Part shown: positions 18,726-52,859 of the stretch, piece after piece
How the letters are laid out: the number at the start of each line of letters is the position of its first letter
Numbering within the stretch: the stretch's first letter is position 1
NCBI GenBank assembly: GCA_046485185.1
Contig: JAWOHL010000005.1
Location: 27,605-91,604 of the forward strand
DNA length: 64,000 bases
Reading direction: 5' to 3'
DNA from: Candidatus Fermentibacteraceae bacterium
Lineage (GTDB): Bacteria; Fermentibacterota; Fermentibacteria; Fermentibacterales; JCC-6
Made by a program: the position numbers and the translations under genes
Notes under the pieces: model-generated
What the model was told of the DNA's origin: nothing
Database searches by the model: none
The model's input: only the letters and a program-made list of their open reading frames with translations

Positions 18726-18809
18726 GGATGCTTTCCCTTCCGCTGCGGATTGGAGCATATTTATCCATAACCGCCCAAAGGTCAAGCACCCTCCCTGGAA
18801 GGAGCCTCC

Positions 18810-20072
18810 ATGCACCCGGCAAGATACGAGAAGTTCCTTGGTCTGCGCCCAGTCAACGTGCGGAACGCCATGCCCGGAAGCCTTTGCGGTCTGGCTTCGG
18901 GAAGGGATATAGCTCTCGCGGCCTCTCTGGCCGACGCCATAGTCATGGCCTGCAACATACGCCACCACATGTGCATCCCTGGCATATTCAGGGCCGCCCG
19001 CAAGGCCGATTCCGTCGTGATGCTCGAACTTGCCAAATCCGAGGCCACATACACCGGGGTCTCCTTCGAGAACCTTCCGGGAATAGCAGCCCATGTCTCG
19101 AGCCTTCTCGGTGACAGGATCGTTTTCGGCCTCCACATGGATCATTACGCAGTCAAATCCCCGGCGGAGAGGGATCAGGCCATGAAAGCCATTCCCGCGG
19201 CGATCGGCCAGGGCTGGACCAGCGTCGCCATAGACGCAAGCCACAACCCGGACTGGGAGAACCTCTCCTACACCCGCGACGTTGCCCTCAGCATTCCGCC
19301 ATACATAGGCCTCGAGGCTGAAGTGGGAGAGATCCGCGGTGGGGATGTTCTCACAACGGTCCGCGAAGCCGAGTACTTCGTGGGCGGTCTGAACAGCTGG
19401 GGGGTCTTTCCCGATTTCCTGGCCATAAGCAACGGTTCGAAGCACGGAGCTTACGACAGCGCTTCCGGCGAATCCGAGGGGATAAACCTCGGGCGTACGG
19501 GCGAGATCGCCCGGGCAATCGAGCGGTACGGCTGCGTGATCGCCCAGCACGGGATCAGCGGCACTCCACTTGACAAGGTGGGTCTTTTCACGAAGTACGG
19601 TATCCGCAAGGGCAATGTGGGAACCCTTTGGCAGAACATTCTCTTCGGGCTGGACGTCGACCCGGAGAGCGGTAACGCCTACACCGAGAACGGCCGTTGG
19701 GTCAAGAGACCCGACCGGGGCATCCCGATGGAACTCTGGAACGAAATGACCGCTCACGCCGATTCCATGGGCATGTCCGGCAACTCGGGAGACTACAAGA
19801 AGCTGAACCTTCCGTTCCACCACAGGATCATGGCCGTGGGAGGGGAGTACAGAGCCAGGATCATCGATGAGACCGAGCGCTGGGCCCTCAGGTTCTTCGA
19901 AGCCTTCAACGCCGTCGGAACCGCTACCAGGCTTGTGGACGCAGTAGTGGAAAGGGGCGACTGGAACAGCTCGCCATGCAGGAAGATAATTGTGGAGAGG
20001 GGCTTTTACGGAGCCCACAACCCGCCTGACGCTGGAACGGTCGAAGCCGTGAAGGGTGATTTTTCTGACTGA
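18810..20072 (+). CDS. class II (metal-dependent) ketose-bisphosphate aldolase family protein
   Basis: GLHMDH and AIDASH motifs typical of class II FBA/tagatose-bisphosphate aldolases. 420 aa is the long form. Confidence 0.6.
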   Translation: MHPARYEKFLGLRPVNVRNAMPGSLCGLASGRDIALAASLADAIVMACNIRHHMCIPGIFRAARKADSVVMLELAKSEATYTGVSFENLPGIAAHVSSLLGDRIVFGLHMDHYAVKSPAERDQAMKAIPAAIGQGWTSVAIDASHNPDWENLSYTRDVALSIPPYIGLEAEVGEIRGGDVLTTVREAEYFVGGLNSWGVFPDFLAISNGSKHGAYDSASGESEGINLGRTGEIARAIERYGCVIAQHGISGTPLDKVGLFTKYGIRKGNVGTLWQNILFGLDVDPESGNAYTENGRWVKRPDRGIPMELWNEMTAHADSMGMSGNSGDYKKLNLPFHHRIMAVGGEYRARIIDETERWALRFFEAFNAVGTATRLVDAVVERGDWNSSPCRKIIVERGFYGAHNPPDAGTVEAVKGDFSD

Positions 20073-25727: not shown

Positions 25728-27659
25728 ATGAGATCCCCCGCGCTCCGCACTGTCCGGACGCTCATTGTCACGGTGGCGCTGCTGGCAATGCTTCTGGTGG
25801 TGTCATCGGTTCTCGTACACAGGATAACCGTCATCGCTCTTTCGAAGATCGACAGCGGCGTTTCGGTGGCCCGTGTCATCGCCACGCCGGAAGCCATGCT
25901 TCTTCTGGGTGTGTCTTTCCCCTCCCGGGGCGTGCGGGCCGATTCGGCATGGGTTCTTCTTAAGGGGTTTCCCCTTACGCTCGAGGCCACCGATGTCGTA
26001 ATGACGGCCGCAACCGTTCTGCCCGTCACCCGCCCCGGGGCGGAGCCCTTCCAGAGAGGTTCCGGACGGGCTGCACCCCGGGTCTCCATTCTCAGGGGAG
26101 TTCTTGTTACGGGTGACCAGGAGAGCGACCTGTTCGCCCGATACGATTCGGGCGTCATCGTGTTCGGTCTGGCCGGCTCCTGGGGCCGCGCATGGGGAGA
26201 GAGAAGCGACACCGACAGCATTTCCGTGGTTTTCCGTGACTGCACGGGGCTTCCGGGAATACCGGGCCTGCCGGGCGTTCTGGAGGGGAACGCGTTCTGC
26301 GGAGTCGCCCGGGGACACCAGAGCGGCAGGGACGCCAGTTTCAGCGGAGCGTTCACCAGTTTCAACGGCCGGCCGGTGGACATGTCGTTCCGCATGGAAA
26401 TGGTTCAGGGAAGACCCGGATTCGAGATCAGCACGGATTTCCGTCAGGTCGCGCCCCAGGTATCGGACTTCCTTTTCGGGATGACAGGGGGGGCCGTGTC
26501 GGGGGCCGTTCCCGAGGGGGCCTTCACAGTGGCCACCGCAGGCGGCGACACGCTGTTCTTCTCTTTCGATGTCTCCTTCGGCAGCGTGCGTGTTTTCCAT
26601 CCATCCCTGGCGCGTGACACCGTATGCATCTCATGCTCATCCACGGGCAGGGGATTCGTTCTGCCCCGTTCCGGGACGTTCTCGGTGGATACGGCAGCAT
26701 TTCTGCTTGGAACGGCCGGTTTCGGCTACTCGGTTCAGGGCGGGTGGGGTGAAAGAAGGTTTCTGCGCCTCAGTATGTACAACGACTCCCTGCGCGGCGA
26801 CGCCATCGCAGCCTCCGTTCCCGGACCGCTTCTGGGGCGGCTAAGGGGGCTCAGGCTTTCCGGCGCCATATCCTTCGACATCGGCCTGTTTCTCGACTGG
26901 GACTATCCCGACAGCTCCGATGTTTTCATCGATATCGACGCCTCCGGCCTCAGGGTCGATCACAGCCCGGTGGGCTTCGGGAGGCTCGCGGCCTCTTCGG
27001 GAGAAACAGTTCTAATGAGGGACAGCTGGGGAAACTCGAGGACCGTGGGCCTTGATTCGATATCCCGTCCGGGGTTTGTCGCGGTGCGAAGCTTCCCGCC
27101 CTGGCTCGAACCCCTGCTCTGCGCGGCGGAGGACGGCACCTTCCGTCATCACAGCGGATTCAGCGAGTTCCATCTCAGAAACAGCATAAGGACCGACATG
27201 AGCCAGGGCAGGTTCGTCCGGGGCGGGTCGACCCTCTCCATGCAACTCGTGAAGAACCTGTTCCTCAGCAGGGAGAAGACTCTTGCCAGAAAACTGCAGG
27301 AAGTGTTTCTGACCTGGCGCATGGAAGCCCACCTGAGCAAGGACAGGATCCTGGAGCTTTACGTAAACGTGGTGGAGCTCGGACCCGACGTGTTCGGCTT
27401 CGGCGAAGCGGCCGCGTACTACTTCGGAACCACCGCCGAGAGCCTTTCGGTGAGGGAAACCGCCTTTCTCGTGTCGATACTTCCCGGCCCCAGGTTATAT
27501 CACAGGTTCGCTGTCGCCGGCGCACTTCCCGGTTACTGGAACGACTACCTCGACATACTCGTGAGCGCCGCTGAGAGCCGCACCGGCCTTGACGGCTCAT
27601 CGGCGCGTTCGGGGATTTACGGGAACCTTGTGTTCGACGGAACGGTTTCGGGGATCTGA
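25728..27659 (+). CDS. membrane-anchored protein with C-terminal GT51 peptidoglycan glycosyltransferase domain and about 420-aa N-terminal domain of unknown function
   Basis: N-terminal TM helix. C-terminal EDGTFRHHSGF...GGSTLSMQLVKN...RKLQEVFLTWRMEAHLSKDRILELYVNVVELG...FGFGEAAAYYFG matches the GT51 motifs. There is no transpeptidase domain. Confidence 0.7.
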   Translation: MRSPALRTVRTLIVTVALLAMLLVVSSVLVHRITVIALSKIDSGVSVARVIATPEAMLLLGVSFPSRGVRADSAWVLLKGFPLTLEATDVVMTAATVLPVTRPGAEPFQRGSGRAAPRVSILRGVLVTGDQESDLFARYDSGVIVFGLAGSWGRAWGERSDTDSISVVFRDCTGLPGIPGLPGVLEGNAFCGVARGHQSGRDASFSGAFTSFNGRPVDMSFRMEMVQGRPGFEISTDFRQVAPQVSDFLFGMTGGAVSGAVPEGAFTVATAGGDTLFFSFDVSFGSVRVFHPSLARDTVCISCSSTGRGFVLPRSGTFSVDTAAFLLGTAGFGYSVQGGWGERRFLRLSMYNDSLRGDAIAASVPGPLLGRLRGLRLSGAISFDIGLFLDWDYPDSSDVFIDIDASGLRVDHSPVGFGRLAASSGETVLMRDSWGNSRTVGLDSISRPGFVAVRSFPPWLEPLLCAAEDGTFRHHSGFSEFHLRNSIRTDMSQGRFVRGGSTLSMQLVKNLFLSREKTLARKLQEVFLTWRMEAHLSKDRILELYVNVVELGPDVFGFGEAAAYYFGTTAESLSVRETAFLVSILPGPRLYHRFAVAGALPGYWNDYLDILVSAAESRTGLDGSSARSGIYGNLVFDGTVSGI

Positions 27660-35325: not shown

Positions 35326-36107
35326 TGGAACACCTCCCGATCATACTGGCGGGAACTGCCCTTCTGTTCTGCTTTTTCTTCGCCACAAGGCTTTTAAAGT
35401 CTCCGTTCTGGAAGAGAAGGCAGCTCCGAAAAGCGTCACTGATGGCGGCCCGGGGCAACATAACCGCCATGACCGGCTACCTCAGGGCCAACATGGACAG
35501 GGGCAGGGTTTCGTGCCCACTCACCAACGCACTGGTGTACTTCTATATACGCTCCGGTGATCTGGACAGCGCCGAAAAGATAGTAACCGACGCCATGGGC
35601 AGGGGCGACAGCTCCGGTGGCGCACTCGCTCAGCTTGCGTACATTGCCCAGGGCCGCAGCGAATGGGAAAACGCCGAGAAGCTCTACAGAAAAGCCATGG
35701 AGGCTGAGCCGTCCCTGGCCCCCACGCTGGGGATGAACATCGCGGGCTCCCTGATCCAGCGCAACACACGGCTCGATGAAGCCGAAGACCTTCTGAACCA
35801 GGCTCTCGATTCAGAGAACGGGCCGTCGCGGAGTTCGGTCCACCTGAACCTCGCCATGCTGAACTCACTGCGGGGAAGCCACTCTCAGGCCAAAGTCCAT
35901 GCCCTCACGGCGTACGAACTCATGCAGGACCTCGAGATCACCCGCCTTGGAAGGGCTCAGGCGCTGGGTCTCGCCGCCGGGGCATCCAGAAAGATGAAGG
36001 ATCCGGTCGAAGCGGCGAGGCTCTCCCAGAAGGCCCTGAAAGTCATGGGGGATCTGTCAGGCGCGGAGAGGCTTCGTACAGAGCTTCAGGAAATGGCTGG
36101 CAGTTGA
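35325..36107 (+). CDS. TPR-repeat membrane-anchored protein
   Basis: N-terminal TM helix followed by TPR-like helical repeats. Confidence 0.55.
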   Translation: MEHLPIILAGTALLFCFFFATRLLKSPFWKRRQLRKASLMAARGNITAMTGYLRANMDRGRVSCPLTNALVYFYIRSGDLDSAEKIVTDAMGRGDSSGGALAQLAYIAQGRSEWENAEKLYRKAMEAEPSLAPTLGMNIAGSLIQRNTRLDEAEDLLNQALDSENGPSRSSVHLNLAMLNSLRGSHSQAKVHALTAYELMQDLEITRLGRAQALGLAAGASRKMKDPVEAARLSQKALKVMGDLSGAERLRTELQEMAGS

Positions 36108-37036
36108 GGAAGGCTCTATGGGCTGTCATTCTGGGAGTGGTGGTCTATACGGCGCTGGTGCTGAGGTCCGACGTGTCCAGGGTGGGCCGGGCCATTTCAG
36201 CTATCCATCCCGCATGGATCCCGGTCTTTCTGGCGCTTCCCCTCTCGAACTACTTCTTCAGGTTCCTGAAGTGGAACTACTTCCTGCGCAGGGTCGGGGT
36301 TTTTATCCCCAAAGGCGAGAGCCTGGCGGTCTTCATCGCAGGTTTCTCCATGACGGTATCGCCCGGCAAGTTCGGTGAGCTCGTTAAATGCGTCATCCTG
36401 AAGGAGAGGCGGGGAGTGCCCGTTTCAATCACCAGCCCCGTGGTGGTGGCTGAGCGGATCACCGACCTTCTCAGCATGGTGTGCCTGGCCGCGGCCGGCG
36501 CGGCCCTTTCGGGGGGCGGTGCGGTGCTTCCCGCCATCGCTGCCGGGGTGGTCTTCGTGTCGTCGGCCATGGTCTTTCTTCTCTGGACCCCGGCGTGGCG
36601 GCTGGCGGCACGGACCGCCTCCCGGCTTCCCGTGCTGAAAACGAGAACCGAAGCCCTCGAAGACTTCAGACAGTCCGCCATTATCCTTCTGGACTTCAGA
36701 AGCATGCTGTTTTCGGTTCCCCTTGGGATTCTGGGATGGGGTCTCGAAGCGCTTGTTCTGTGCGCCGTTGCTGCCTCGATGGGGGTTTCCCTTCCGGCCG
36801 GAGTCGCGCTTCTCAGCCATGCCGCAGGAACCATTGCCGGCGCCGTAAGCATGATCCCCGGAGGCCTGGGCCTCACCGAGCTGACAATAGACGGGATCCT
36901 GGGCGGCTCGATGCCCCACGCTCAGGCGGCTGTCACCACGCTGCTCATGCGCTTCTGTACGTTATGGTTCGGGGTTCTGCTGGGACTGGCATTCATTGCG
37001 GTGCTGGGAAGAAAAACAGGTACGAAAACCAGATGA
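36104..37036 (+). CDS. lysyl-PG-synthase-TM-like 'flippase-like domain' membrane protein (UPF0104 family)
   Basis: About 8 TM helices. Conserved FxGFSMTVSPGKFGELVKCVIL...AERITDLL pattern of the LPG_synthase_TM family. Confidence 0.65.
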   Translation: MRKALWAVILGVVVYTALVLRSDVSRVGRAISAIHPAWIPVFLALPLSNYFFRFLKWNYFLRRVGVFIPKGESLAVFIAGFSMTVSPGKFGELVKCVILKERRGVPVSITSPVVVAERITDLLSMVCLAAAGAALSGGGAVLPAIAAGVVFVSSAMVFLLWTPAWRLAARTASRLPVLKTRTEALEDFRQSAIILLDFRSMLFSVPLGILGWGLEALVLCAVAASMGVSLPAGVALLSHAAGTIAGAVSMIPGGLGLTELTIDGILGGSMPHAQAAVTTLLMRFCTLWFGVLLGLAFIAVLGRKTGTKTR

Positions 37037-37074: not shown

Positions 37075-37323
37075 CTAAAGGCCTTCCCTCACACTGCCGG
37101 GGTCGAGGAGCCGCTCGGGATTGCTCTTGTTGAACAGCGAGATCCCGAAGGGCCCCGCGCCTGTAACGCAATTGTTTTGAGGTCCGGGTCCAGGCCCTGC
37201 GCTGCAATCAGGCCCGGTTCCGGGTCCGCCCCCGGCCGCGCACCGGGCATGCCAGCCCATCCCGCCGGCACTGGACAAACCCTGCAGCTCAGGTTTCGTG
37301 TACTTTTCAGGGAAGACAGTCAT
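37075..37323 (-). CDS. candidate RiPP precursor peptide (Gly/Pro/Cys-rich small ORF)
   Basis: 82 aa: MTVFPEKYTKPELQGLSSAGGMGWHARCAAGGGPGTGPDCSAGPGPGPQNNCVTGAGPFGISLFNKSNPERLLDPGSVREGL. It is the last gene of the minus-strand rSAM/PqqD operon. SD AAGGAAG lies about 11 nt upstream, preceded by an AT-rich promoter-like stretch. The core has three Cys in a G/P-rich context. Confidence 0.4.
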   Translation of the reverse strand: MTVFPEKYTKPELQGLSSAGGMGWHARCAAGGGPGTGPDCSAGPGPGPQNNCVTGAGPFGISLFNKSNPERLLDPGSVREGL

Positions 37324-37366
37324 AGGACGATACGCTTCCTTTCAGAACCAACCTCAATATGCTATC

Positions 37367-37762
37367 CTAATGCCAGCGCAACCTTCTGACAATGGCGCAG
37401 TGAACCCTTACCGCAATTTCCGGAACATTTTCGGCCCACAGGGCTCTTCTGCAGAGCGGGCGGTACTTCCGGCGCCTCAGTACACCGATTACTACCGGTA
37501 CGGTATCGAATTGTTCCAGAAGCAACGGAGCGTCCCTTCCCGAACGGTCTCCCGCGGTGTAAAGAAGAACACGCCCGCCCCTTTTCACGGTTCGGACCAC
37601 CCTGTGAACTACCTGATCCTTCGTTCCGTGACCGAGAACCACGACCTGCCCCGGAAGAACACTTGAAACCGGTTGCCGCATCGCCCTGAGGATGTCGCCG
37701 GGTATCAGGGCCGGCCACATCGAAAGCCCCCTCACGAAGCCCCTCATGTATTCCGAAGCCAT
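37367..37762 (-). CDS. ER/archaeal-type (S26B-like) signal-peptidase-like small protease
   Basis: GLSMWPALIPGDI matches the SPase I Ser box (SM-x-P-x-L-x-x-GD). The later VHRVV sits where Lys-dyad enzymes have KRV, suggesting a Ser/His dyad as in SipW/Sec11. 131 aa. Confidence 0.5.
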   Translation of the reverse strand: MASEYMRGFVRGLSMWPALIPGDILRAMRQPVSSVLPGQVVVLGHGTKDQVVHRVVRTVKRGGRVLLYTAGDRSGRDAPLLLEQFDTVPVVIGVLRRRKYRPLCRRALWAENVPEIAVRVHCAIVRRLRWH

Positions 37763-38271
37763 GTCCGGATCAACTGGTCCGAGTCATCGGCCCGTCTTCG
37801 GAGAACCACTGCGGGATGGCTTTTGAAGAGGCTTTCTGTAAAGACCCTGGCAGCGTTCCTCACATGCTGGGGAACCATGTCGAGGACCATGAGCGAACCG
37901 ATCCTCTCGGCTCTGAAAAAGCCGTATTCCGGTGTAAGCCTGAGAACAGCCGGTGAACCCTTCTCGAGAAGGACGATTCCTGAGAGGATTGCCGGCTGGA
38001 TGTGGAAATCTCCCGTCTTCATCCTGTGGGCGCCGCAGGGAAGTGTTCTCACTACGCCGTCGGTGCCCCGGGCCACTACAACGGTGTCATCACCGATGAG
38101 GCGCCAGCCCAGTGACGCCAGGTGATAGGCCACGGTTGTCTTCCCTCCGTTTGAGGGGGCCAGGAAAAGGATGGACCTTTCTTCGAGGGCTACGGCCGCT
38201 CCGTGAAAAAGGGCACCACCGGGGCAGACCGCCATGAGTTGTGCCCGAAGCAGCGACCTTCGGTTATCCAT
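37744..38271 (-). CDS. HprK-related P-loop kinase (HPr kinase C-terminal-domain-like)
   Basis: ILFLAPSNGGKTTVAYHLASLGWRLIGDDTVVV matches the HprK C-domain pattern G-x-SG-x-GKS...L..G..LV-DD-V. Confidence 0.6.
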   Translation of the reverse strand: MDNRRSLLRAQLMAVCPGGALFHGAAVALEERSILFLAPSNGGKTTVAYHLASLGWRLIGDDTVVVARGTDGVVRTLPCGAHRMKTGDFHIQPAILSGIVLLEKGSPAVLRLTPEYGFFRAERIGSLMVLDMVPQHVRNAARVFTESLFKSHPAVVLRRRADDSDQLIRTWLRNT

Positions 38272-39322
38272 GGGTTCTCGACGCGGGGAAAAGACCCTTC
38301 TGGCAGGCCAGTTCGCAGAACCTGTGGGGGGAGGCGAAGCTTCCGCCGACCGAGTAGTTCTCCATGATGCACTTGCCCATACATGAGTTCACGTGGACGC
38401 ACCGGGAACAGATTCCACGGTCGTCCTCCCGCAGGCTTTTTCGAAGCTCGGCAAGGAGGGGGGAGTTCTCCCAGATGTCCTTCAGCTTCTTCCGGGGCCA
38501 GGTTCCCATTGCGAGCTGAGGCAGGCTGTAAGCAATTCCGCAGAAAGAGACGGTACCATCCGGAAGGATTCCCAGAAGGTTGAGAACAGAGCATCTGCCC
38601 GTGGATGCGAGCCTGTTCACGGGGATGAAAGCGTGGGGCGCGTCGGGTATCACGCTGGGCGGAAACTCGCTGAAGACCCATTTCAGGAATTCCAGTGATT
38701 CCGCGATGTGATCCGGATCTGAGAAATGCGAGGCAGAACCTTTGCCCACCGGCGTGATCAGGTTGATCTTCAGGGAAGACACGCCGCTTCCTTCGAGAAA
38801 GGCCACCATGTCCGCCACAGCCTTCCTGTCGGGCCGGTTCACCGACATGATCACCTGGGGGCTGACGGCCGACTCGGAAACGAGCCTGTTGATGAAACCC
38901 ACGGTTTTGCGCCAGGAGCCTTCAACACCCCTGAACGCATCGTGAACGGCCGGCCGGCTCGAATCGAGACTGACCGACACCTGGTGCGGGGGCATCTCGG
39001 CCAGCAGACGGAAAAGATCAGGATGTGTAACGGTTCCATTGGTTTCGAAAGCCACTTCCGGAAAAATGCGGTGGGCTGTTCTGTAGAGGTCGGGAAAACG
39101 GGGATAGAGAAGCGGTTCCCCCCCGGTAAACTTCGCGAAGCGCACACCCATCTCCCCGGCTTCCCTCATGACCGCCTCCCATGAGGACACATCCATGGAC
39201 GAACCGGCGACTCCCTCGTTAACCCAGCAGTGGGCACAGTGAAGGTTGCACCCCGGATACGGGTTGAGGTAGATGTGGTTCAGTGCAGGGATCTCAGGGC
39301 TTCCACAAGGTTCCGCAAGCAC
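38264..39322 (-). CDS. radical SAM enzyme with SPASM domain
   Basis: CNLHCAHC is a CX3CX2C motif. FTGGEPLL. C-terminal Cys-rich CSRCVHVNSCMGKC segment. Confidence 0.8.
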   Translation of the reverse strand: MLAEPCGSPEIPALNHIYLNPYPGCNLHCAHCWVNEGVAGSSMDVSSWEAVMREAGEMGVRFAKFTGGEPLLYPRFPDLYRTAHRIFPEVAFETNGTVTHPDLFRLLAEMPPHQVSVSLDSSRPAVHDAFRGVEGSWRKTVGFINRLVSESAVSPQVIMSVNRPDRKAVADMVAFLEGSGVSSLKINLITPVGKGSASHFSDPDHIAESLEFLKWVFSEFPPSVIPDAPHAFIPVNRLASTGRCSVLNLLGILPDGTVSFCGIAYSLPQLAMGTWPRKKLKDIWENSPLLAELRKSLREDDRGICSRCVHVNSCMGKCIMENYSVGGSFASPHRFCELACQKGLFPASRTHG

Positions 39323-40323
39323 GAAAGCTCATCCCTTCCGGTTGTTTCCCCCCGAAGCAGGGGGTTCACCGGGCAACCGCCCGGGCAGACGTCAAGGTAC
39401 TCACACAGCTCGCAATCAGGGTTTTCTGCCCTGCGTGCAGCAAGTATCGAAAGGAACTCAGCCGTCTTTTCAGAAGCCATGACCTCGTTCAGGGTCTGGC
39501 CGGGGAGCCTTCCCAGGACGAAGCCGTCGAGGTAATCGCAGGGAATGACACTTCCGTCGGCCGCAACGGCGATCTTTCCGGTGCAGCCCCCGCAACTGAA
39601 AGCCCTGCCGCCGGTTTGCCGCGCCCTTCGGTTAAGGGTGTCCCCCGCCATCCTGGCCATGTCCGGAAGAGGGCCGAACACCCGGGGGTCTCCGAGTTCA
39701 AGCAGGTCGAGCCCTGCCTTCACAAGTCCTGCCAGATCGCCGTGAAACCCATCGGGAACCGCGCACTGGGCGGCGAGGACCGGGGTGAACTTCGCTCCGC
39801 CGACCCCCAGGTCGTTGAGCGCGAAGTCGGCTGTTTCGATGACTCTGTCATGGTTCAATCTGGTCACGGTGCAGTTGATGATCACGGGAAGACCTGCCCC
39901 GACAGCCCGCCTTATGCCCTCGACAGCCCTGCTGAAGACTCCTTTACCCCTCAGGGCATCATGGGTTGCGGCGTCGGGGCCGTCGAGCCCCGCCATGATC
40001 AGCGCAAGCCTCGGGCCGGCCCGTTTGAGCAGGGAAGCCGTTTCGGTGGTCAACAGCGTGGCATTGGTGTTCAGGGAGAACCGGAAGGGTTTTTCACTGA
40101 TCATTCCGGTAAAGTCACCGAAATCGCGCCTTGCCAGAGGCTCTCCCCCCGAGACCACAAGCTCGAGCACCTTCGCGTCCAGAAGTCTGTCGAGGATCTT
40201 CTCCCATGTGGTGAGGGGCAGGTCATCACCCGGCGGTCTGACGCCGCAATGGGTGCATGAGAGGTTGCAGCGCCCGGTGATGAGAACGGTTACACTTCTG
40301 GGAGCAAGGGTGATCTCCGTCAC
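39280..40323 (-). CDS. radical SAM enzyme with SPASM domain (PqqE/ranthipeptide-maturase-like)
   Basis: CNLSCTHC is a CX3CX2C motif. VSGGEPL. C-terminal CGGCTG...CELCEYLDVCPGGC SPASM motifs. Confidence 0.85.
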   Translation of the reverse strand: MTEITLAPRSVTVLITGRCNLSCTHCGVRPPGDDLPLTTWEKILDRLLDAKVLELVVSGGEPLARRDFGDFTGMISEKPFRFSLNTNATLLTTETASLLKRAGPRLALIMAGLDGPDAATHDALRGKGVFSRAVEGIRRAVGAGLPVIINCTVTRLNHDRVIETADFALNDLGVGGAKFTPVLAAQCAVPDGFHGDLAGLVKAGLDLLELGDPRVFGPLPDMARMAGDTLNRRARQTGGRAFSCGGCTGKIAVAADGSVIPCDYLDGFVLGRLPGQTLNEVMASEKTAEFLSILAARRAENPDCELCEYLDVCPGGCPVNPLLRGETTGRDELSCLRNLVEALRSLH

Positions 40324-40571
40324 TCAATAACCCCGTTTTGACGCAGTTGGGCCAGGAAGTCGTCCAGGTCCCGCTCGACTTCGGGCCGGTCAGGGTAGCT
40401 CTGCCTGAGGCGGGTCAGGATGTCTTCCCTGGAAGCGCGTTCGTCTATCATGGAGCAGATCGCCACGGCGACTTCCTCCACGATCTGAAGGGCGCCGCTG
40501 TTCACGTTGAAAAGAATGCCACCCTCGGGCTCCCGTCGGAAAACAACACCAGTGGCGAATGAGAGCTTCAT
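40320..40571 (-). CDS. PqqD-family RiPP recognition element (RRE) protein
   Basis: 83 aa. GGILFNVNSGALQIVEEVAVAICSMIDERASREDILTRLRQSYPD...LDDFLAQLRQNGVI follows the PqqD fold pattern. First gene of the minus-strand operon. Confidence 0.75.
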   Translation of the reverse strand: MKLSFATGVVFRREPEGGILFNVNSGALQIVEEVAVAICSMIDERASREDILTRLRQSYPDRPEVERDLDDFLAQLRQNGVIE

Positions 40572-40597
40572 TTATTTCTCCCGGTGTTGAGGAACAT

Positions 40598-40626
40598 TTG
40601 TGTTTTCCCAGCGTATTTGGTAATAT
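40598..40626 (+). promoter_or_regulatory. sigma-70-like promoter (TTGTGT-17 nt-TAATAT) upstream of the 40649 gene, in the divergent region shared with the PqqD operon
   Basis: Read directly from the sequence. 17-nt spacer and a -10 about 20 nt upstream of SD GGGAGGGACGGA. Confidence 0.4.
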
Positions 40627-40648
40627 ACCCCCAACAGGGAGGGACGGA

Positions 40649-41038
40649 ATGAGGATCTGCATCGCTCTTGCGTTTTGTGTTTCCGTTGTCGCTATGGGAT
40701 ACGGGCTTTCCGAAGGCTCGTTCAACCTGCTCAACCCGCCCGCGTTCGGGGGGCAGGGCTTCAGGAACTTTCACAGTACGGCCAGCTTCAGCCTGGTATC
40801 AGGTTCCGGGGGGTCCTGGGGGCAGGGCGCTTACGTTGGCACCATGAACTTCTCGCTGCATCCAAAGGTGACAGCTCTCGTCGACCTTGGCTACGCCCGT
40901 ACCTTCGATTTCTCGGGGGGTGGAAATTTCGGCCATCTGCTGGGCGGGGTTCAATTCCAGTGGAAACCCACTGACGGCAGCACCTTTGTTCTCCAGTACA
41001 ATGGCGCCATTCCCACAGGGCGTATCGAAGGGTTTTAG
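40649..41038 (+). CDS. small secreted Gly/aromatic-rich protein ending in C-terminal Phe (possible outer-membrane-associated)
   Basis: Signal peptide MRICIALAFCVSVVAMG. 129 aa. Beta-strand-like alternation, C-terminal ...GRIEGF. Strong SD. The ORF-track start at 40559 is an upstream extension. Confidence 0.55.
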   Translation: MRICIALAFCVSVVAMGYGLSEGSFNLLNPPAFGGQGFRNFHSTASFSLVSGSGGSWGQGAYVGTMNFSLHPKVTALVDLGYARTFDFSGGGNFGHLLGGVQFQWKPTDGSTFVLQYNGAIPTGRIEGF

Positions 41039-41109
41039 GCACGCTACCCCTGCTTCTCGCACTGGCGGTCAACACCCCCGCAGACTCGCTTTTTTCAAGG
41101 GGTGAGCTT

Positions 41110-41943
41110 TTGCGGGCTCTTCCCCTCTATGTGTCCGAATACAACGAGAATCCCCTGGACTGGTGGGCTGCCTACAGGTCCTGCTGGATACTGAACCGGC
41201 TCGACCGTCCCGATTCCGCCGTGGTCTGGGGGGGTAGAGCGCTTGATCTGCGCCCCGGCAGTTCCGCCGTTCTCGGCGAGTTCCTGAGGGCTCATTCCGC
41301 CTCGCCCGACAGTGTTCTCAAGTACGGCGATCTCGTCTCGGGAGGGGGTGTGTGCCGGTTCAGGCTGGCTCAGGCCGAACGCCGCCTGGGGCTTTCCGGT
41401 GAGCACAATGCCTACCTTCAGTCCACCCTCTCCGCCGGAAACGATTCGGTGAGGGCGGACGCGGCATGCTGGCTCAGCATGCTGCACCCCGGCCGATCCA
41501 TTGAACTCATGGAACAGGCCGTTCTTCTCGCGCCGGGTGAGGAGTTCTACCGAACTGTGCTTGCCGGTCTGTACGCGGAAGAAGGCATGCCTGAAGAAGG
41601 CTTCGATGTTCTCGCCCCCGTGGCGCCCGAGGGTTGTTACTACTGGCAGGCCGTCGCCCGTTGCCACGAAGCCGCGGGAGCGGTCGGGCAGGCGGCATCG
41701 TATTACAGAAGGGCATACCTTTCCCGGCAGAGCCCTGACTTCGCGGCTGATCTGGGCTGGTTTCTCTACCGCGCCGGACGCGACCTGGCAAGGGCTGACG
41801 ATTGTCCTGGCGCAGCGCTCTACCTCCGGGAATCGGCCGAACTCTGGCACCGTGATTCTTCATGGGCCGTCGCCTCCGACTCGCTGCTCACGAGGATAAA
41901 CGAGTTCCTGCTGCTTGAAAGTAGTTGGGAGAGAATACATTGA
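41110..41943 (+). CDS. hypothetical helical (TPR-like) protein
   Basis: 277 aa, high GC3, repeated helical hairpin pattern. An in-frame GTG at 41101 is an alternative start. The antisense 251-aa ORF is judged spurious. Confidence 0.5.
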   Translation: MRALPLYVSEYNENPLDWWAAYRSCWILNRLDRPDSAVVWGGRALDLRPGSSAVLGEFLRAHSASPDSVLKYGDLVSGGGVCRFRLAQAERRLGLSGEHNAYLQSTLSAGNDSVRADAACWLSMLHPGRSIELMEQAVLLAPGEEFYRTVLAGLYAEEGMPEEGFDVLAPVAPEGCYYWQAVARCHEAAGAVGQAASYYRRAYLSRQSPDFAADLGWFLYRAGRDLARADDCPGAALYLRESAELWHRDSSWAVASDSLLTRINEFLLLESSWERIH

Positions 41944-42254
41944 AGCAAGGTCACTTCACAAGCCTGCTTTGTTTGCTTATCTTCACTGCGGGATGCTCGG
42001 AAAGGATGCGTGACGACCTCTGGAGCCATTGCGCGTTCAGCGCTGCTGGCGCCGGGGCGTTGACAGCATCCACGGGCGACTGCCTCGAAGGCGCGGTTGT
42101 GGCCGTGGGGGTAGGCATACTGAAAGAGATTTACGATGCATTCCGAGGGTCGGGGTTCGGTTTTGACGACCTCACGGCAGACATTGCGGGCAGCATCTTC
42201 GGCGCAGTGGGCACCAGGATCGCCATGGAAGGATCATTTTGCTTGAGAAAGTAG
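41925..42254 (+). CDS. small lipoprotein with glycine-zipper-like C-terminal segment
   Basis: In-frame TTG at 41940 gives [19 protein letters not shown] (lipobox) and overlaps the upstream stop. [12 protein letters not shown] Gly-zipper-like segment. Confidence 0.4.
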
Positions 42255-50630: not shown

Positions 50631-52859
50631 ATGGTTTCACCAGGCATGAAGAAACGGGCTGAGCAGCTTGTGGCCAGGGCCGGTGAACTGGCGAGGGCGG
50701 GAAACCGGGACAAGGCTCTCCTTGCCCTGCAACGGGCTGCTGAACTTGATCCCGAGAACGAGCAGATCCAGAAGAGTATCGCCGAACTTGAGCGGGAACA
50801 GGCCGCCATGCGGAACTTCAGCAAAAGCAGAACGGCGAGGGCCCACACCAACATCGGACAGGCGACCCCGGCGGACTTCGTATCGGAGTGCATGAAACGG
50901 TCCGACGATGCCCTGACCGAAGGGGACGAGGTTAGAGCCCTCCAGGAACTTGAGCGGGCAAAACGCCACGATCCAGAGAACATCGACGTGAACCGCAAGA
51001 TCCAGATCCTGCGCAGGCAGATCAAGGTCAACGGCCTGTTCGACAAGGCCGTGGCCAGGCTTGCGTCAGGAGAGCCCGCCGAAGCGGTGGTCGCGGCCCG
51101 TCGTATTTTCGGGATATGGTCCATGGCTCCATCCCTTCCTGAACTGTTATCGCGTATCGAAGCCTGGACCCCTGCGGGTGCCGCGAAACCCGAGACCGCA
51201 CCTGCAAGGAAGACAAGGCAGGCTCCGGCAGCTGCCGCTGTTTCCCCCGAGACCGCCGCTGTGGCCTCGATCCGGGAAAGGATCGCCAAAAGCGCCTACA
51301 AAGAGGCCTACCAGGAAGCCCTGGATGCCTCTTCAAAGTACCCCGGCAACACCACGATAAGGGATCTCATAACAGGTCTCGAGAAGCTTCTGGGCAAGAC
51401 GGCTCCCGTCGTAACCGAACCGGAACCGGTCGAGGCCCCCGTTCCCGCTGTGAAAAAGGCGAAAAGGGCTGAGCCGGCCCCTGAGCCCGTTGCCGAAACC
51501 CGAAGGGAAGAGCCCCGCGAACCCGAGGGCAAAAAGAAGTTCCCGATCTGGATAGTGGCCGTCGCCGTTCTTGCGGTTCTGGCCGTTGTGGTGTTCGTGT
51601 TCAAGCCCTTCGGTCCCCCGAAACCCGTCGAACCCGTGGCGGCTCAGCCCTACACCGTTTCCTTTACGGTTCCCGGCGCCACCGAACCCCATGTGAGCAT
51701 CGACGGAGTCGAGATACACCCCGACCCCGAAACCGGGGTCTACTCATTCACCGATACGCTCTCCACTCCCCGGACGGTCGAGATCCGTGCTCTCGGGTAC
51801 GAAACGCTGTTCCAGACCTTCCAACCCGAGCCGGGAAGCGTGAGCGAGATGGAGCTCGCACCGGACACTCTCGGAACCCATACGGTTACCGTAGCCTTCT
51901 CCCCCGTAATGCCAACGGGTGAACCCGATCCCGGGCCGGGGCAGATCGTCTGGATGGTCGACGGCGCCCAGGTTTCGTCACCGCTCGAGATCCCCACGGG
52001 CCTCCATGTCTTCCAGCCTGTGATGGAGGGCTTCAACTCGATCCCCGAGTCGATCCTGGTCGACTTCAGCACCGACGTCCAGAACTTCTCCATGGCGCTC
52101 CTTTCCAGGCAGGAATCCCAGATAGTCCTGACACTGGCGGCTGACGTACCCGGAACCGCCAACTTCGACATCGACGGCGAAAGGGTTGGCAGCGGCGTGA
52201 GGAGGGTCAGTCAGGTCCTTCCCCTTGGCACCCACACGATAAGGGTCACCATGGAGAACCGCGAACCATGGGCGGAAACCGTTAACCTTACCGAGGCCGG
52301 TTACACTCGAACCGTAGCCCCGGTAGAGATCATACTTACGGGAAGGTTACTGATAGGGCCTGAACCATGGGCCAACGTGACCGTGAACGGAGAGTCCCGC
52401 GGGCAGACACCCTTGCCCCCCCTCGAGCTAGCCGAAGGAACCTACACTGTAAGGCTCACGAACCCCGAGTACGAAGACCAGGTCTCCACAGTGACCATAG
52501 CCGCGGGAGAGGACACGAGCATCAGGTACACCGCCCAGCCCGTCGAGGTCACGCCGGATGAGATCACATCACCAGTAGATGAACCTGTCATCCCTCCCTT
52601 CCCCATCTCCCAGACCACGCCGGTCACACCGAGCCTTGCCCAGCAAAGGGGCGATGTTCACGGCTTCGTGACCCTCGAGGTAAGGGTCGGGACGGACGGA
52701 AGGGTCAAAGACGTTTCGGTGATCAATGACCAGGTCGGCCTCGGGTGTGGTCAGGCTGCCATTGATGCGGTCAGGCAGTGGGTGTTCAACCCCGCCACCC
52801 AGGGTGGTTCCCCGGTGGAGGTGACCACCACCGTCCAGGTCCGCTTCGACGTGGAGTAG
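50631..52859 (+). CDS. TonB-family protein with N-terminal TPR-like region, central TM helix, PEGA-like beta domains and C-terminal TonB domain
   Basis: SD GGGAGGGGA before ATG 50631. TM IWIVAVAVLAVLAVVVFVF. PEGA-like PWANVTVNGESRGQTPL. C-terminal ...GFVTLEVRVGTDGRVKDVSVINDQVGLGCGQAAIDAVRQWVFNPA is the TonB_C signature. Confidence 0.65.
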   Translation: MVSPGMKKRAEQLVARAGELARAGNRDKALLALQRAAELDPENEQIQKSIAELEREQAAMRNFSKSRTARAHTNIGQATPADFVSECMKRSDDALTEGDEVRALQELERAKRHDPENIDVNRKIQILRRQIKVNGLFDKAVARLASGEPAEAVVAARRIFGIWSMAPSLPELLSRIEAWTPAGAAKPETAPARKTRQAPAAAAVSPETAAVASIRERIAKSAYKEAYQEALDASSKYPGNTTIRDLITGLEKLLGKTAPVVTEPEPVEAPVPAVKKAKRAEPAPEPVAETRREEPREPEGKKKFPIWIVAVAVLAVLAVVVFVFKPFGPPKPVEPVAAQPYTVSFTVPGATEPHVSIDGVEIHPDPETGVYSFTDTLSTPRTVEIRALGYETLFQTFQPEPGSVSEMELAPDTLGTHTVTVAFSPVMPTGEPDPGPGQIVWMVDGAQVSSPLEIPTGLHVFQPVMEGFNSIPESILVDFSTDVQNFSMALLSRQESQIVLTLAADVPGTANFDIDGERVGSGVRRVSQVLPLGTHTIRVTMENREPWAETVNLTEAGYTRTVAPVEIILTGRLLIGPEPWANVTVNGESRGQTPLPPLELAEGTYTVRLTNPEYEDQVSTVTIAAGEDTSIRYTAQPVEVTPDEITSPVDEPVIPPFPISQTTPVTPSLAQQRGDVHGFVTLEVRVGTDGRVKDVSVINDQVGLGCGQAAIDAVRQWVFNPATQGGSPVEVTTTVQVRFDVE

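What the first reader, a model, noticed from the sequence alone, without database searches (positions are those of the whole stretch)
37075..40571. Compact RiPP-like operon: PqqD RRE, two SPASM radical SAMs, HprK-like kinase, Ser/His signal-peptidase-like protease, Gly/Pro/Cys-rich small ORF
Seen in sequence: six minus-strand genes with overlapping or abutting boundaries, beginning with an 83-aa PqqD-fold protein and two CX3CX2C + SPASM enzymes. From established knowledge, PqqD-like RREs with SPASM rSAMs define sactipeptide/ranthipeptide/PQQ-like peptide maturation. HprK-like kinases are so far described as precursor-phosphorylating enzymes in lasso-peptide clusters. ER/archaeal-type (Ser/His) signal peptidases are not standard RiPP leader peptidases. 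Inference: a RiPP pathway combining thioether or C-C crosslinking by two rSAMs, peptide phosphorylation, and an S26-type leader protease has not, to my knowledge, been described. The terminal 82-aa ORF, with three Cys in a G/P-rich core, fits a substrate.
Basis: partly seen in the sequence, partly recalled or inferred. Interest (0 to 1): 0.85.

Follow-up and report, generated by a model that had tools for sequence, protein, structure and literature searches.

The report
Compact SynChlorMet-type peptide-maturation operon
This is a real six-gene operon in a Fermentibacteria genome that modifies a small, conserved cysteine-containing peptide; it is a stripped-down relative of the database-defined "SynChlorMet" cassette, whose chemical product nobody has determined.

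Summary
Window 37075-40571 (minus strand) carries six overlapping or abutting genes:
- a PqqD-type recognition protein (RRE);
- two radical SAM/SPASM enzymes;
- a stand-alone HprK-fold P-loop protein;
- a soluble Ser/His/Asp archaeal-type signal-peptidase homologue;
- an 82-aa Gly/Pro/Cys-rich ORF.

The small ORF is a genuine gene. Its dN/dS is 0.13-0.17, and it represents a family of 46 clusters. That family shares the pattern FPExYxKPxL-(9 residues)-G|WxAxC-(about 11-12 residues)-C.

The two rSAMs are orthologues of ScmE and ScmF, and the kinase-like protein carries Pfam ScmC. Three SynChlorMet-type loci (Methanocella, Campylobacterota, Anaerolineae) carry the same parts, including the S26 peptidase. 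The trio of RRE, HprK-like kinase and archaeal-type signal peptidase was shown experimentally in 2026 for LPP peptides (PMC13381572), which have no rSAMs.

The window's proteins fall below all five curated Scm cut-offs. The operon is syntenic across Fermentibacteria and has no exporter beside it.

Verdict: a new, compact variant of a known but chemically uncharacterised kind. Interest is moderate.

The parts
40320..40571 (-). Discrete PqqD-type RiPP recognition element (ScmD-like RRE), 83 aa
   Evidence: PF05402, E=1e-11. Weak, sub-threshold NCBIfam hits to PQQ PqqD, lasso PqqD and ScmD. Best solved-structure match is the lasso RRE TbiB1, 5v1u, E=1.4e-4. First gene of the operon in all six Fermentibacteria loci examined.
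39280..40323 (-). Radical SAM/SPASM enzyme 1 (ScmE orthologue), 347 aa
   Evidence: Radical_SAM 4.2e-25 and SPASM 4.1e-7. Best NCBIfam hit is TIGR04250 ScmE, 143.7 bits against a cut-off of 400. BLASTP scores are 127-139 bits to ScmE proteins of SCM-type loci and 61-82 bits to their ScmF proteins. Carries C19x3C23x2C26 plus the seven-Cys SPASM set.
38264..39322 (-). Radical SAM/SPASM enzyme 2 (ScmF orthologue), 352 aa
   Evidence: Radical_SAM 6.4e-24 and SPASM 6.2e-7. Best NCBIfam hit is TIGR04251 ScmF, 233.1 bits against a cut-off of 400. BLASTP scores are 215-236 bits to ScmF proteins and 58-82 bits to ScmE proteins. Carries C25x3C29x2C32 plus the SPASM set. JGI names close homologues ScmF.
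37744..38271 (-). Short (175-aa) ScmC: a stand-alone HprK/P-type catalytic domain, presumed ATP-dependent peptide kinase
   Evidence: The identical protein P0136 carries Pfam PF27840 ScmC. Weak hits to HprK_rel_A, HprK_rel_B and ScmC. A family profile hits HprK/P 1jb1 at E=3.5e-7. H23, G43-K44-T45-T46 (Walker A) and D61 are conserved. The AF2 model (pLDDT 87.7) has HprK/P 1kkl/1jb1 as its top Foldseek hits (E=3e-6, 171 columns, TM 0.51). It lacks the roughly 125-aa N-terminal domain of the 301-304-aa ScmC proteins.
37367..37762 (-). Soluble S26B (archaeal/ER-type, SipW/SEC11-like) serine peptidase, 131 aa; presumed RRE-dependent leader peptidase
   Evidence: TIGR02228 scores 29.4 bits, below the cut-off of 51.85. 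A family profile hits SEC11A 7p2p at E=1.5e-15, with Ser14 (SM.P), His53 (HR) and Asp72 (GD) aligned to the catalytic residues. The Ser is present in 9 of 9 loci once two truncated gene calls are corrected. No hydrophobic segment: the maximum Kyte-Doolittle 19-residue average is 1.2.
37075..37323 (-). Precursor peptide gene (82 aa plus stop)
   Evidence: Conserved in L001, L002, L003, L005 and L010. dN/dS is 0.13-0.17 in frame and 1.25-2.0 in the other two frames. The family has 46 clusters at 50% identity, all 58-92 aa. It is the only Y.KP.[LVI] peptide in the window.
37255..37323 (-). Predicted leader (aa 1-23), containing the RRE-binding motif F4-P5-x-x-Y8-x-K10-P11-x-L13 (Y8-L13 = 37285-37302) and ending in G23
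   Evidence: F4, P5, Y8, K10, P11, L13 and G23 are invariant. The Y-to-GW spacing is fixed in 52 of 53 family members, and G occupies the predicted -1 position in 50 of 52. Y therefore sits at -16, the same position as in LPP leaders, which are cut by the SpI-like peptidase LppS. The cleavage site is inferred, not shown.
37078..37254 (-). Predicted core (aa 24-82): W24-x-A26-x-C28, C40, C52 in a Gly/Pro-rich stretch, then the conserved tail L-L-D-P-G-x-V-x-x-G-L
   Evidence: W at +1 in 52 of 52, A at +3 in 47 of 52, first Cys at +5 in 47 of 51. The Cys1-Cys2 gap is mostly 11-12 residues. Cores carry 2 Cys (25 members) or 3 Cys (22 members). C28 and C40 are invariant; P75, G81 and L82 are invariant or nearly so within the alignment.

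Best explanation
The region is a vertically inherited, compact variant of the SynChlorMet (SCM) type of RiPP biosynthetic operon, in a Candidatus Fermentibacteraceae genome.

Proposed mechanism, step by step:
1. The 82-aa precursor is bound through its Y8-x-x-P11-x-L13 leader motif by the discrete, lasso-B1-like PqqD protein (RRE). This is inferred from homology and the motif.
2. The RRE presents the core to the two radical SAM/SPASM enzymes, the ScmE and ScmF orthologues. Most likely each acts at one of the two invariant cysteines (C28, C40, plus C52 where present) and forms sacti- or ranthi-type thioether cross-links. This is inferred and the chemistry is unknown.
3. The HprK-fold P-loop protein (short ScmC) phosphorylates a hydroxyl residue of the peptide. 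This is by analogy with LppK and the paeninodin kinases. The target is unknown and cannot be the LPP-type Ser+3, because +3 here is Ala.
4. The soluble Ser14/His53/Asp72 S26B peptidase removes the leader in an RRE-dependent way, probably between the invariant G23 and W24. This is inferred from the fixed Y(-16) spacing shared with LPP leaders and from the small residue at -1.

Shown here: gene content, folds and catalytic motifs, orthology to ScmE/ScmF, conservation and coding status of the precursor, and synteny.
Not shown: any chemical step.
For: - Domains and motifs.
- ScmE/ScmF orthology.
- ScmC Pfam hit on the window's own protein.
- HprK/P fold.
- SEC11-like catalytic triad.
- Lasso-type RRE.
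- Precursor purifying selection.
- Precursor family and invariant positions.
- Same six genes in the same order, between SecA and LPG_synthase/TPR/PBP1A, in six Fermentibacteria-type loci with ScmF identity from 86% down to 41%.
- The same parts in SCM-type loci (Methanocella, Campylobacterota, Anaerolineae), with YxKPxL Cys-rich precursors.
- Experimental precedent for RRE-dependent leader cleavage by an SpI-like Ser/His/Asp peptidase, and for precursor phosphorylation by an HprK-like kinase, with a Y(-16)xxP leader: PMC13381572.
Against: - No chemistry is known for any SCM cassette. No paper in the library mentions it.
- All five curated Scm equivalog cut-offs are missed.
- The LPP phospho-acceptor Ser+3 is replaced by an invariant Ala, and no Ser/Thr position is conserved in the core. 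A kinase role for ScmC is therefore only an analogy.
- Two Cys could equally form a disulfide or be oxidised rather than cross-linked.
- More distant D-E-F loci lack an adjacent ScmC and S26 peptidase (L011, L013). The kinase/peptidase pair is thus an accessory module, not a universal part of the wider family.
- The S26 structure model failed.
Confidence: 0.7

Rival explanations
1. The operon makes a housekeeping peptide-derived cofactor or an intracellular or envelope factor (PQQ- or mycofactocin-like in logic), rather than a secreted, strain-specific antimicrobial RiPP.
For: - The operon lies in a housekeeping neighbourhood and is strictly syntenic (SecA ... operon ... LPG_synthase_TM, TPR, PBP1A) across loci, with ScmF identity falling to 41%. 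Homologues of its ScmF are named from Fermentibacteraceae, Sabulitectum and Aegiribacteria.
- No ABC exporter or immunity gene lies beside it, and none was found among the large ORFs of the window that were scanned. Methanocella and Methanoregula SCM loci do have an ABC exporter.
- Several core positions are invariant (W+1, A+3, C+5, second Cys), and the C-terminal tail is conserved.
- The ScmF-like enzyme scores 92.9 bits to the mycofactocin rSAM.
Against: - Core length and sequence between and after the cysteines vary a great deal (58-92 aa, 2-5 Cys, several tail types). This is unlike PqqA or MftA.
- Both PQQ PqqD models score below their cut-offs (TIGR03859: 34.4 against 46; NF002535: 28.5 against 101), and so does the mycofactocin chaperone MftB model.
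- Relatives outside the phylum sit in typical mobile or BGC-like contexts, with exporters, LanM and toxin-antitoxin genes nearby.
Confidence: 0.2
2. The two rSAM/SPASM enzymes do not make thioether cross-links. They perform other SPASM-type chemistry on the precursor instead: Cys oxidation (anSME-like), thiooxazole formation, or a Trp/Ala C-C cyclophane at the invariant W-x-A.
For: - The SPASM regions also match anSME. Best-hit lists include enzymes of many different chemistries: heme/NirJ, MftC, WgkB, SbtM, DynA.
- W24-x-A26 is invariant directly before C28. From my own knowledge, this resembles the three-residue cyclophane motifs reviewed in PMC11002830.
Against: - SCM-type precursors outside the phylum keep the multiple Cys but not the Trp. 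Cys is therefore the family-wide constant.
- The closest solved homologue of both enzymes is the thioether-forming SkfB.
Confidence: 0.2
3. It is simply an ordinary member of the already catalogued SynChlorMet cassette, and nothing about it is new.
For: - Best hits are ScmE and ScmF, and the kinase-like protein carries PF27840 ScmC.
- JGI already labels close homologues ScmF.
- The parts list matches that of SCM-type loci elsewhere.
- The Anaerolineae locus bridges the score gap (ScmE 390 bits, ScmF 364 bits) and also has the short 175-aa ScmC.
Against: - All five curated equivalog cut-offs are missed by wide margins: 143.7 of 400, 233.1 of 400, 18.6 of 125, 20.7 of 100, 8.2 of 35. NCBI annotates the proteins only as 'radical SAM protein' or 'hypothetical'.
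- The precursor sits at the 3' end of the operon.
- The clade-specific G|WxAxC junction, the conserved C-terminal tail, the minimal two-Cys cores, the missing exporter and NTP transferase, and the phylum-wide synteny are not features of the cassettes examined outside the phylum.
Confidence: 0.2
4. The 82-aa ORF is not the substrate. It is a chance ORF or an unrelated small protein, and the true precursor lies elsewhere.
For: It has no Pfam hit. Its only NCBIfam hit is ScmA at E=2.9. Its composition is low-complexity Gly/Pro.
Against: - dN/dS is 0.13-0.17 in frame and above 1.2 in the other frames, with mostly third-position changes.
- It is present at the same position in six of six loci.
- 46 homologous clusters share invariant leader and Cys positions.
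- Its leader motif is the one bound by lasso- and LPP-type RREs.
- No other such peptide occurs in the 64 kb.
Confidence: 0.03

Closest known systems
SynChlorMet (SCM) cassette: NCBIfam/TIGRFAMs TIGR04248 ScmD, TIGR04249 ScmC, TIGR04250 ScmE, TIGR04251 ScmF, TIGR04252 ScmA; Pfam PF27840 ScmC. It is defined bioinformatically only.
   Same: - PqqD-type RRE followed by two paralogous rSAM/SPASM enzymes in the order E then F.
- An HprK-related ScmC.
- A Cys-rich Gly/Ser/Asn/Pro-rich precursor with an N-terminal YxKPx(L/V) motif.
- An adjacent S26 Ser/His peptidase in the three SCM-type loci examined (L007, L008, L009).
- E-to-E and F-to-F orthology.
   Different: - Every curated cut-off is missed.
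- ScmC is reduced to the 175-aa catalytic domain, as it also is in Anaerolineae L008.
- The peptidase is 131 aa rather than 180-224 aa.
- The precursor is the last gene, not between F and C.
- The G|WxAxC junction and the conserved C-terminal tail are specific to this clade.
- Cores need only 2-3 Cys, against 4-7 in the three SCM-type loci examined.
- No ABC exporter or NTP transferase is adjacent.
- The operon is chromosomally syntenic across a phylum.
LPP (linear polyphosphorylated peptide) clusters of Bacillota: LppA/LppB/LppK/LppS (Popov et al., Nat Commun 2026, PMC13381572)
   Same: - A discrete lasso-like RRE, an HprK-like kinase and an archaeal-type (SipW-like) Ser/His/Asp signal-peptidase homologue acting as leader peptidase.
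- A YxxPx(V/L) leader with Y at -16 from the (predicted) cut site.
- The same Ser-to-His spacing of 39 residues in the peptidase (S29/H68 in LppS, S14/H53 here).
   Different: - LPP clusters have no radical SAM enzymes.
- LPP cores are linear, with Ser+3 polyphosphorylated. Here +3 is an invariant Ala, and the core carries invariant Cys.
[quoted passage not shown]
Paeninodin/Bsf-type phosphorylated lasso peptides (RRE B1 plus HprK-like kinase)
   Same: A YxxPxL leader is recognised by a discrete PqqD-type RRE. The best solved match of the window's RRE is the lasso B1 protein TbiB1. An HprK-like kinase acts on the precursor.
   Different: This cluster has no lasso cyclase and no B2 cysteine protease. 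Its precursors have no conserved C-terminal Ser. The leader peptidase is a serine S26 enzyme.
Sactipeptide and ranthipeptide maturases (SkfB, AlbA, PapB, CteB/SCIFF)
   Same: rSAM/SPASM enzymes with three Fe-S cluster motifs acting on Cys-containing cores under RRE guidance. SkfB is the closest solved homologue of both enzymes.
   Different: - The RRE here is a separate protein, not an N-terminal fusion.
- Two paralogous maturases act per cluster.
- All the specific family cut-offs are missed.
- Cross-link chemistry has not been demonstrated.
Cytoplasmic S26-family propeptide proteases, for example the NiSOD maturation protease (TIGR02754)
   Same: A small soluble S26 peptidase that lacks a membrane anchor and removes an N-terminal propeptide inside the cell. 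There is a weak hit to TIGR02754 (E about 1e-3).
   Different: The score is below the cut-off (19.6 against 63.25). The substrate and context are different, and the presumed action here depends on the RRE.

Membership tests
SynChlorMet cassette (NCBIfam equivalogs) | ScmE: TIGR04250 score of at least 400 bits | tested here: not met
   143.7 bits. It is still the best hit, over the full length of the model. BLASTP groups the protein with ScmE rather than ScmF.
SynChlorMet cassette (NCBIfam equivalogs) | ScmF: TIGR04251 score of at least 400 bits | tested here: not met
   233.1 bits. Best hit, over the full length of the model. For comparison, the canonical L009 protein scores 478 and the Anaerolineae L008 protein 364.
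SynChlorMet cassette (NCBIfam equivalogs) | ScmC: TIGR04249 score of at least 125 bits | tested here: not met
   18.6 bits, covering the P-loop region only. However, the precomputed Pfam PF27840 ScmC hit is present on the identical protein P0136.
SynChlorMet cassette (NCBIfam equivalogs) | ScmD: TIGR04248 score of at least 100 bits | tested here: not met
   20.7 bits. The Methanocella ScmD scores 122.7.
SynChlorMet cassette (NCBIfam equivalogs) | ScmA precursor: TIGR04252 score of at least 35 bits | tested here: not met
   8.2 bits, E=2.9. The precursors of SCM-type loci L007, L008 and L009 also fail this narrow model.
SynChlorMet cassette (architecture) | Co-located PqqD homologue, two PqqE-like rSAM/SPASM paralogues, an HprK-related protein and a Cys-rich small precursor | tested here: met
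   The same set occurs in L007, L008 and L009.
LPP family (PMC13381572) | Core set of discrete RRE, HprK-like kinase and SpI-like Ser/His/Asp peptidase | tested here: met
LPP family (PMC13381572) | Leader YxxPxVLxHQxIxFET with Ser at core position +3 as the phospho-acceptor | tested here: not met
   Only the YxxPx(L/V) motif and the Y(-16) spacing are shared. Position +3 is Ala in 47 of 52 precursors, and -1 is Gly rather than Thr.
LPP family (PMC13381572) | NTP transferase and MsbA-like exporter in the cluster; no other primary modifying enzyme (linear product) | tested here: not met
   Neither gene is adjacent or among the large ORFs that were scanned. Two rSAM/SPASM enzymes are present.
Sactipeptide / ranthipeptide | rSAM/SPASM maturase with RRE and a Cys-containing core | tested here: met
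Sactipeptide / ranthipeptide | Cys S-to-C(alpha) or C(beta/gamma) thioether cross-links in the product | not testable with these tools
   This needs MS/NMR of the product. The specific maturase models (PapB, StsB, AlbA, SkfB, SCIFF) all score far below their cut-offs.
S26B signal peptidase (SEC11/SipW type) | Ser/His(/Asp) catalytic residues in the SM.P, HR and GD motifs | tested here: met
   S14, H53 and D72 align to SEC11A.
S26B signal peptidase (SEC11/SipW type) | Membrane anchor, and a score above the TIGR02228 cut-off (51.85 bits), as expected of a secretory signal peptidase | tested here: not met
   No hydrophobic segment: the maximum Kyte-Doolittle 19-residue average is 1.2. The score is 29.4 bits.
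HPr kinase/phosphorylase | HprK/P catalytic-domain fold with the His, Walker A and DD motifs | tested here: met
HPr kinase/phosphorylase | Full-length two-domain enzyme scoring above TIGR00679 (240 bits); HPr as substrate | tested here: not met
   17.4 bits. The protein is 175 aa and has no N-terminal domain. The substrate cannot be tested here.
PQQ / mycofactocin cofactor pathways | PqqD/MftB and PqqE/MftC equivalog scores; PqqA- or MftA-type precursor | tested here: not met
   TIGR03859: 34.4 against 46. NF002535 (PqqD): 28.5 against 101. TIGR02109: 61.7 and 56.2 against 381. TIGR03962: 70.3 and 92.9 against 265. TIGR03967 (MftB): 16.7 against 33. The precursor is unrelated.

The most novel reading that the evidence does not exclude
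The Fermentibacteria clade of SCM-like operons encodes a new RiPP class. An RRE-guided SpI-type leader peptidase and an HprK-type kinase (the LPP logic) are combined with two radical SAM/SPASM enzymes, each of which installs one cross-link at the invariant W-x-A-x-C ... C core. Because the operon is vertically inherited across the phylum and has no exporter, the product would serve a conserved physiological role, for example as a redox, metal-binding or envelope factor, rather than acting as a bacteriocin.
Probability: 0.3. Interest if true: 0.7.

Novelty: new variant of a known kind. Interest (0 to 1): 0.45.

Why it matters
NCBIfam and Pfam carry curated models for the SCM cassette, yet I found no paper that names it or reports a product. 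This operon is among the smallest versions seen here: six genes in 3.5 kb, with relatives whose precursors need only two cysteines. That makes it a convenient system for finding out what ScmE and ScmF actually do.

It also links two lines of work. One is the 2026 demonstration that an archaeal-type signal-peptidase homologue and an HprK-like kinase act with an RRE on YxxP leaders (the LPP family). The other is radical SAM peptide cross-linking. The link suggests that the trio of RRE, kinase and SpI-type peptidase is a portable module reaching well beyond Bacillota, into archaea, Anaerolineae, Campylobacterota and Fermentibacteria.

The phylum-wide synteny raises the possibility of a physiological role rather than an antibiotic one.

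Tried and rejected
- Literature searches for 'SynChlorMet', the Scm gene names and TIGR accessions, and SPASM + HPr kinase + RiPP found nothing relevant. Fermentibacteria + radical SAM gave one irrelevant paper.
- Haft & Basu 2011 (PMC3133131) is not held in the library.
- The two papers that cite it say nothing about SCM.
- The single-sequence AF2 model of the S26-like protein was unusable (pLDDT 38.5), so no fold search was run on it.
- The NCBIfam ScmA model does not detect even the precursors of SCM-type loci L007, L008 and L009. It therefore cannot decide membership of the precursor.
- The promoter and terminator scan gave no more sites than chance.
- No Rfam family, tRNA or notable repeat lies in the window.
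- The word-indexed search with the 175-aa ScmC found only 12 close relatives.
- A search for a precursor next to the D-E-F-only locus L011 found none.
- I considered paeninodin-type C-terminal Ser phosphorylation and rejected it, because the conserved tail ends in G-L with no conserved Ser.
- I considered a secretory signal-peptidase role and rejected it, because the protein has no membrane segment.

Full report
**Observation.** Successive genes overlap by 4, 43, 8 and 19 nt, and a 43-nt gap precedes the small ORF. The neighbouring genes on both sides run on the plus strand, so this is one compact operon. A divergent gene lies upstream and a convergent LPG_synthase_TM gene downstream. The window matches a Candidatus Fermentibacteraceae (Hyd24-12) MAG at 100% identity.

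**The five enzymes.**
- The 83-aa protein is PqqD (PF05402, E=1e-11). Its best solved-structure relative is the lasso-peptide RRE TbiB1 (5v1u, E=1.4e-4).
- Both large proteins have Radical_SAM and SPASM domains. Each has CX3CX2C and the complete SPASM cysteine set, C-x(n)-G-x4-C ... CX2CX5CX3C ... C.
- Their best NCBIfam hits are full-length matches to ScmE (143.7 bits) and ScmF (233.1 bits) of the 'SynChlorMet cassette'. Both scores are below the curated 400-bit cut-offs.
- BLASTP against five SCM-type loci outside the phylum shows clean orthology. The first enzyme scores 127-139 bits to every ScmE and 61-82 bits to every ScmF. The second scores 215-236 bits to ScmF and 58-82 bits to ScmE. 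SkfB is the closest solved homologue of both.
- The 175-aa protein is identical to P0136, which carries the precomputed Pfam family PF27840 ScmC. A family profile hits HprK/P at E=3.5e-7 across the His, Walker A and DD segment. H23, G43-K44-T45-T46 and D61 are conserved. An AF2 model (pLDDT 87.7) superposes on the L. casei HprK/P catalytic domain over 171 columns (E=3e-6, TM 0.51), with PEPCK next. It is therefore a stand-alone HprK-type catalytic domain and lacks the roughly 125-residue N-terminal domain of the 301-304-aa ScmC proteins.
- The 131-aa protein scores below the cut-off for archaeal signal peptidase I (29.4 against 51.85 bits). A profile of its family hits human SEC11A at E=1.5e-15, with S14 (SM.P), H53 (HR) and D72 (GD) aligned to the catalytic residues. 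The serine is present in 9 of 9 loci once two truncated gene calls are extended. The protein has no hydrophobic segment, so it is a soluble protease, not a secretory signal peptidase.

**The small ORF is a real, conserved precursor.**
- It is present, intact and in the same position in relatives whose ScmF proteins are 86%, 85%, 60%, 49% and 41% identical to the window's.
- Among the three closest genomes, dN/dS is 0.13-0.17 in its own frame and 1.25-2.0 in the other two frames. Third-position changes dominate.
- A word-indexed profile search found 15 homologues. An exhaustive HMM search of 1.84 billion cluster representatives found 46 clusters, all 58-92 aa.
- The pattern is strict. F-P-x-x-Y-x-K-P-x-L is followed by exactly nine residues, and then G-W-x-A-x-C. 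The tyrosine-to-tryptophan spacing is identical in 52 of 53 members. G precedes W in 50 of 52, and A sits two residues after W in 47 of 52. The first Cys is at +5 from W in 47 of 51. The second Cys follows after mostly 11-12 residues.
- A third Cys is present in about half of the members, and the shortest members have only two. Many members end in a conserved ...P-x-x-V-x-x-G-L tail.
- No other peptide of this type is encoded in the 64 kb.

**Comparative context.** All six Fermentibacteria-type loci keep the same six genes in the same order between SecA and LPG_synthase_TM/TPR/PBP1A. Named homologues come from Fermentibacteraceae, Sabulitectum and Aegiribacteria. The operon is therefore inherited vertically within the phylum.

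Outside the phylum the same parts list recurs:
- Methanocella L007 has ScmD (122.7 bits, cut-off 100), ScmE, ScmF, a 92-aa seven-Cys precursor beginning MGKLVYEKPQL, ScmC (287 bits, cut-off 125) and a 224-aa S26 peptidase (53.9 bits, cut-off 51.85). An NTP transferase and an ABC exporter lie beside them.
- Campylobacterota L009 has ScmE at 498.6 bits and ScmF at 478 bits, the precursor MKKIYVKPKV... (five Cys), a 304-aa ScmC and an S26 peptidase.
- Anaerolineae L008 scores just below the cut-offs (390 and 364 bits). It already has the short 175-aa ScmC.
- Two more distant loci keep only PqqD-E-F, with no kinase or peptidase adjacent (L011, L013).

The kinase/peptidase pair is thus a frequent but separable module.

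**Comparison with what is known.** The combination was catalogued bioinformatically as the SCM cassette (NCBIfam TIGR04248-04252, Pfam PF27840). I found no paper that names it or reports a product.

The closest experimental system is the LPP family (Popov et al. 2026, PMC13381572). Its cluster comprises a discrete RRE (LppB), an HprK-like kinase (LppK), an archaeal-type SipW-like peptidase (LppS, catalytic S29/H68/D93), an NTP transferase and an exporter. These act on precursors with the leader YxxPxVLxHQxIxFET|xxS.
- LppS cleaves only with the RRE present.
- LppK polyphosphorylates Ser+3.
- The authors state that SpI-like peptidases had not been described in RiPP pathways before.
- The paper contains no mention of radical SAM.

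In LPP the tyrosine sits at -16 from the cut. Applying that spacing here puts the cut between the nearly invariant G23 and the invariant W24. That also gives the small -1 residue expected for an S26 enzyme. This is my inference, not a result. The Ser-to-His spacing of 39 residues is the same in LppS and in the window's peptidase. The LPP phospho-acceptor is not conserved: +3 is Ala here. Every precursor has at least one Ser/Thr between the first two Cys, but at no fixed position.

**Most likely mechanism.** The RRE binds the YxKPxL leader. ScmE and ScmF each modify the core at or near the two invariant Cys, most probably as thioether cross-links. ScmC phosphorylates the peptide, possibly to license cleavage as in LPP. 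The soluble S26B peptidase then removes the 23-residue leader. Only the gene content, folds, motifs, orthology and conservation are shown here. Every chemical step is inferred.

**Rivals.**
- (a) A housekeeping, cofactor-like product. This is supported by synteny, the absence of an exporter and the invariant core positions. It is opposed by the large variability of the core.
- (b) Non-thioether rSAM chemistry, such as Cys oxidation or a W-x-A cyclophane.
- (c) An ordinary SCM member with nothing new. The missed cut-offs and the clade-specific features argue against this.
- (d) The ORF is not the substrate. This is essentially excluded.

**Verdict.** The novelty claim is overstated. This is a compact, divergent, phylum-specific variant of a known but chemically uncharacterised kind of RiPP cluster. 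Its accessory trio now has an experimental precedent. Interest is moderate (0.45). Its practical value is as a minimal system for working out SCM chemistry.

**What failed.** The single-sequence structure model of the peptidase was unusable. The promoter and terminator scan found nothing above chance. Rfam, tRNA and tandem-repeat scans found nothing of note. The ScmA model is too narrow to be useful.

Noticed in passing
window 37364-37392 (-): A sigma-70-like TTGTCA-17-TAGGAT site lies inside the 3' end of the S26 gene, about 40 nt upstream of the precursor ATG. It could be a separate precursor promoter. However, the scan found only 1 site against 0.8 expected by chance, and the second hexamer overlaps the S26 stop codon.
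   Followed up: partly
window 40559-42254 (+): Three genes without a confident Pfam assignment run divergently from the operon: a 159-aa ORF whose true start is probably near 40649, a 277-aa ORF, and a 109-aa DUF2279-like ORF that scores below threshold. The first two accompany the operon in every Fermentibacteria locus examined (L003, L005, L010); no counterpart of the third was called in L010. They are absent from SCM loci outside the phylum.
   Followed up: partly
window 36104-37036 (+): An LPG_synthase_TM (MprF-like membrane domain) gene converges on the precursor gene with only 38 bp between the stop codons. It is syntenic in all six Fermentibacteria loci. Whether it has any functional link, such as export or immunity, is unknown.
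   Followed up: no
L013 1-4581: A distant SCM-like PqqD-ScmE-ScmF locus sits directly beside a LanM-type lanthipeptide synthetase and a Nif11-type precursor. It carries two of its own YE(K/P)PE(V/L) Cys-containing precursors, and a nitroreductase-like gene takes the place of ScmC.
   Followed up: partly
L008 4904-5595: A HicB-family antitoxin pair is inserted between ScmE and ScmF in the Anaerolineae locus, which also has two PqqD genes.
   Followed up: no
P0169 and P0180 (precursor homologues): Two family members diverge into unrelated sequence straight after the first Cys region. This looks like frameshifts or assembly errors in the source contigs rather than real variants.
   Followed up: no
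window 60104-62422 (+), 50631-52859 (+), 17004-20018 (-): A 772-aa protein with a caspase (Peptidase_C14) domain; a 742-aa PEGA plus TonB_C protein; and a TrkH ORF with a roughly 580-aa N-terminal extension that may be an over-extended ORF.
   Followed up: no
window 1-64000: No tRNA gene and no Rfam family at gathering threshold anywhere in the 64 kb. There is only one weak tandem repeat, at 26322-26369.
   Followed up: yes
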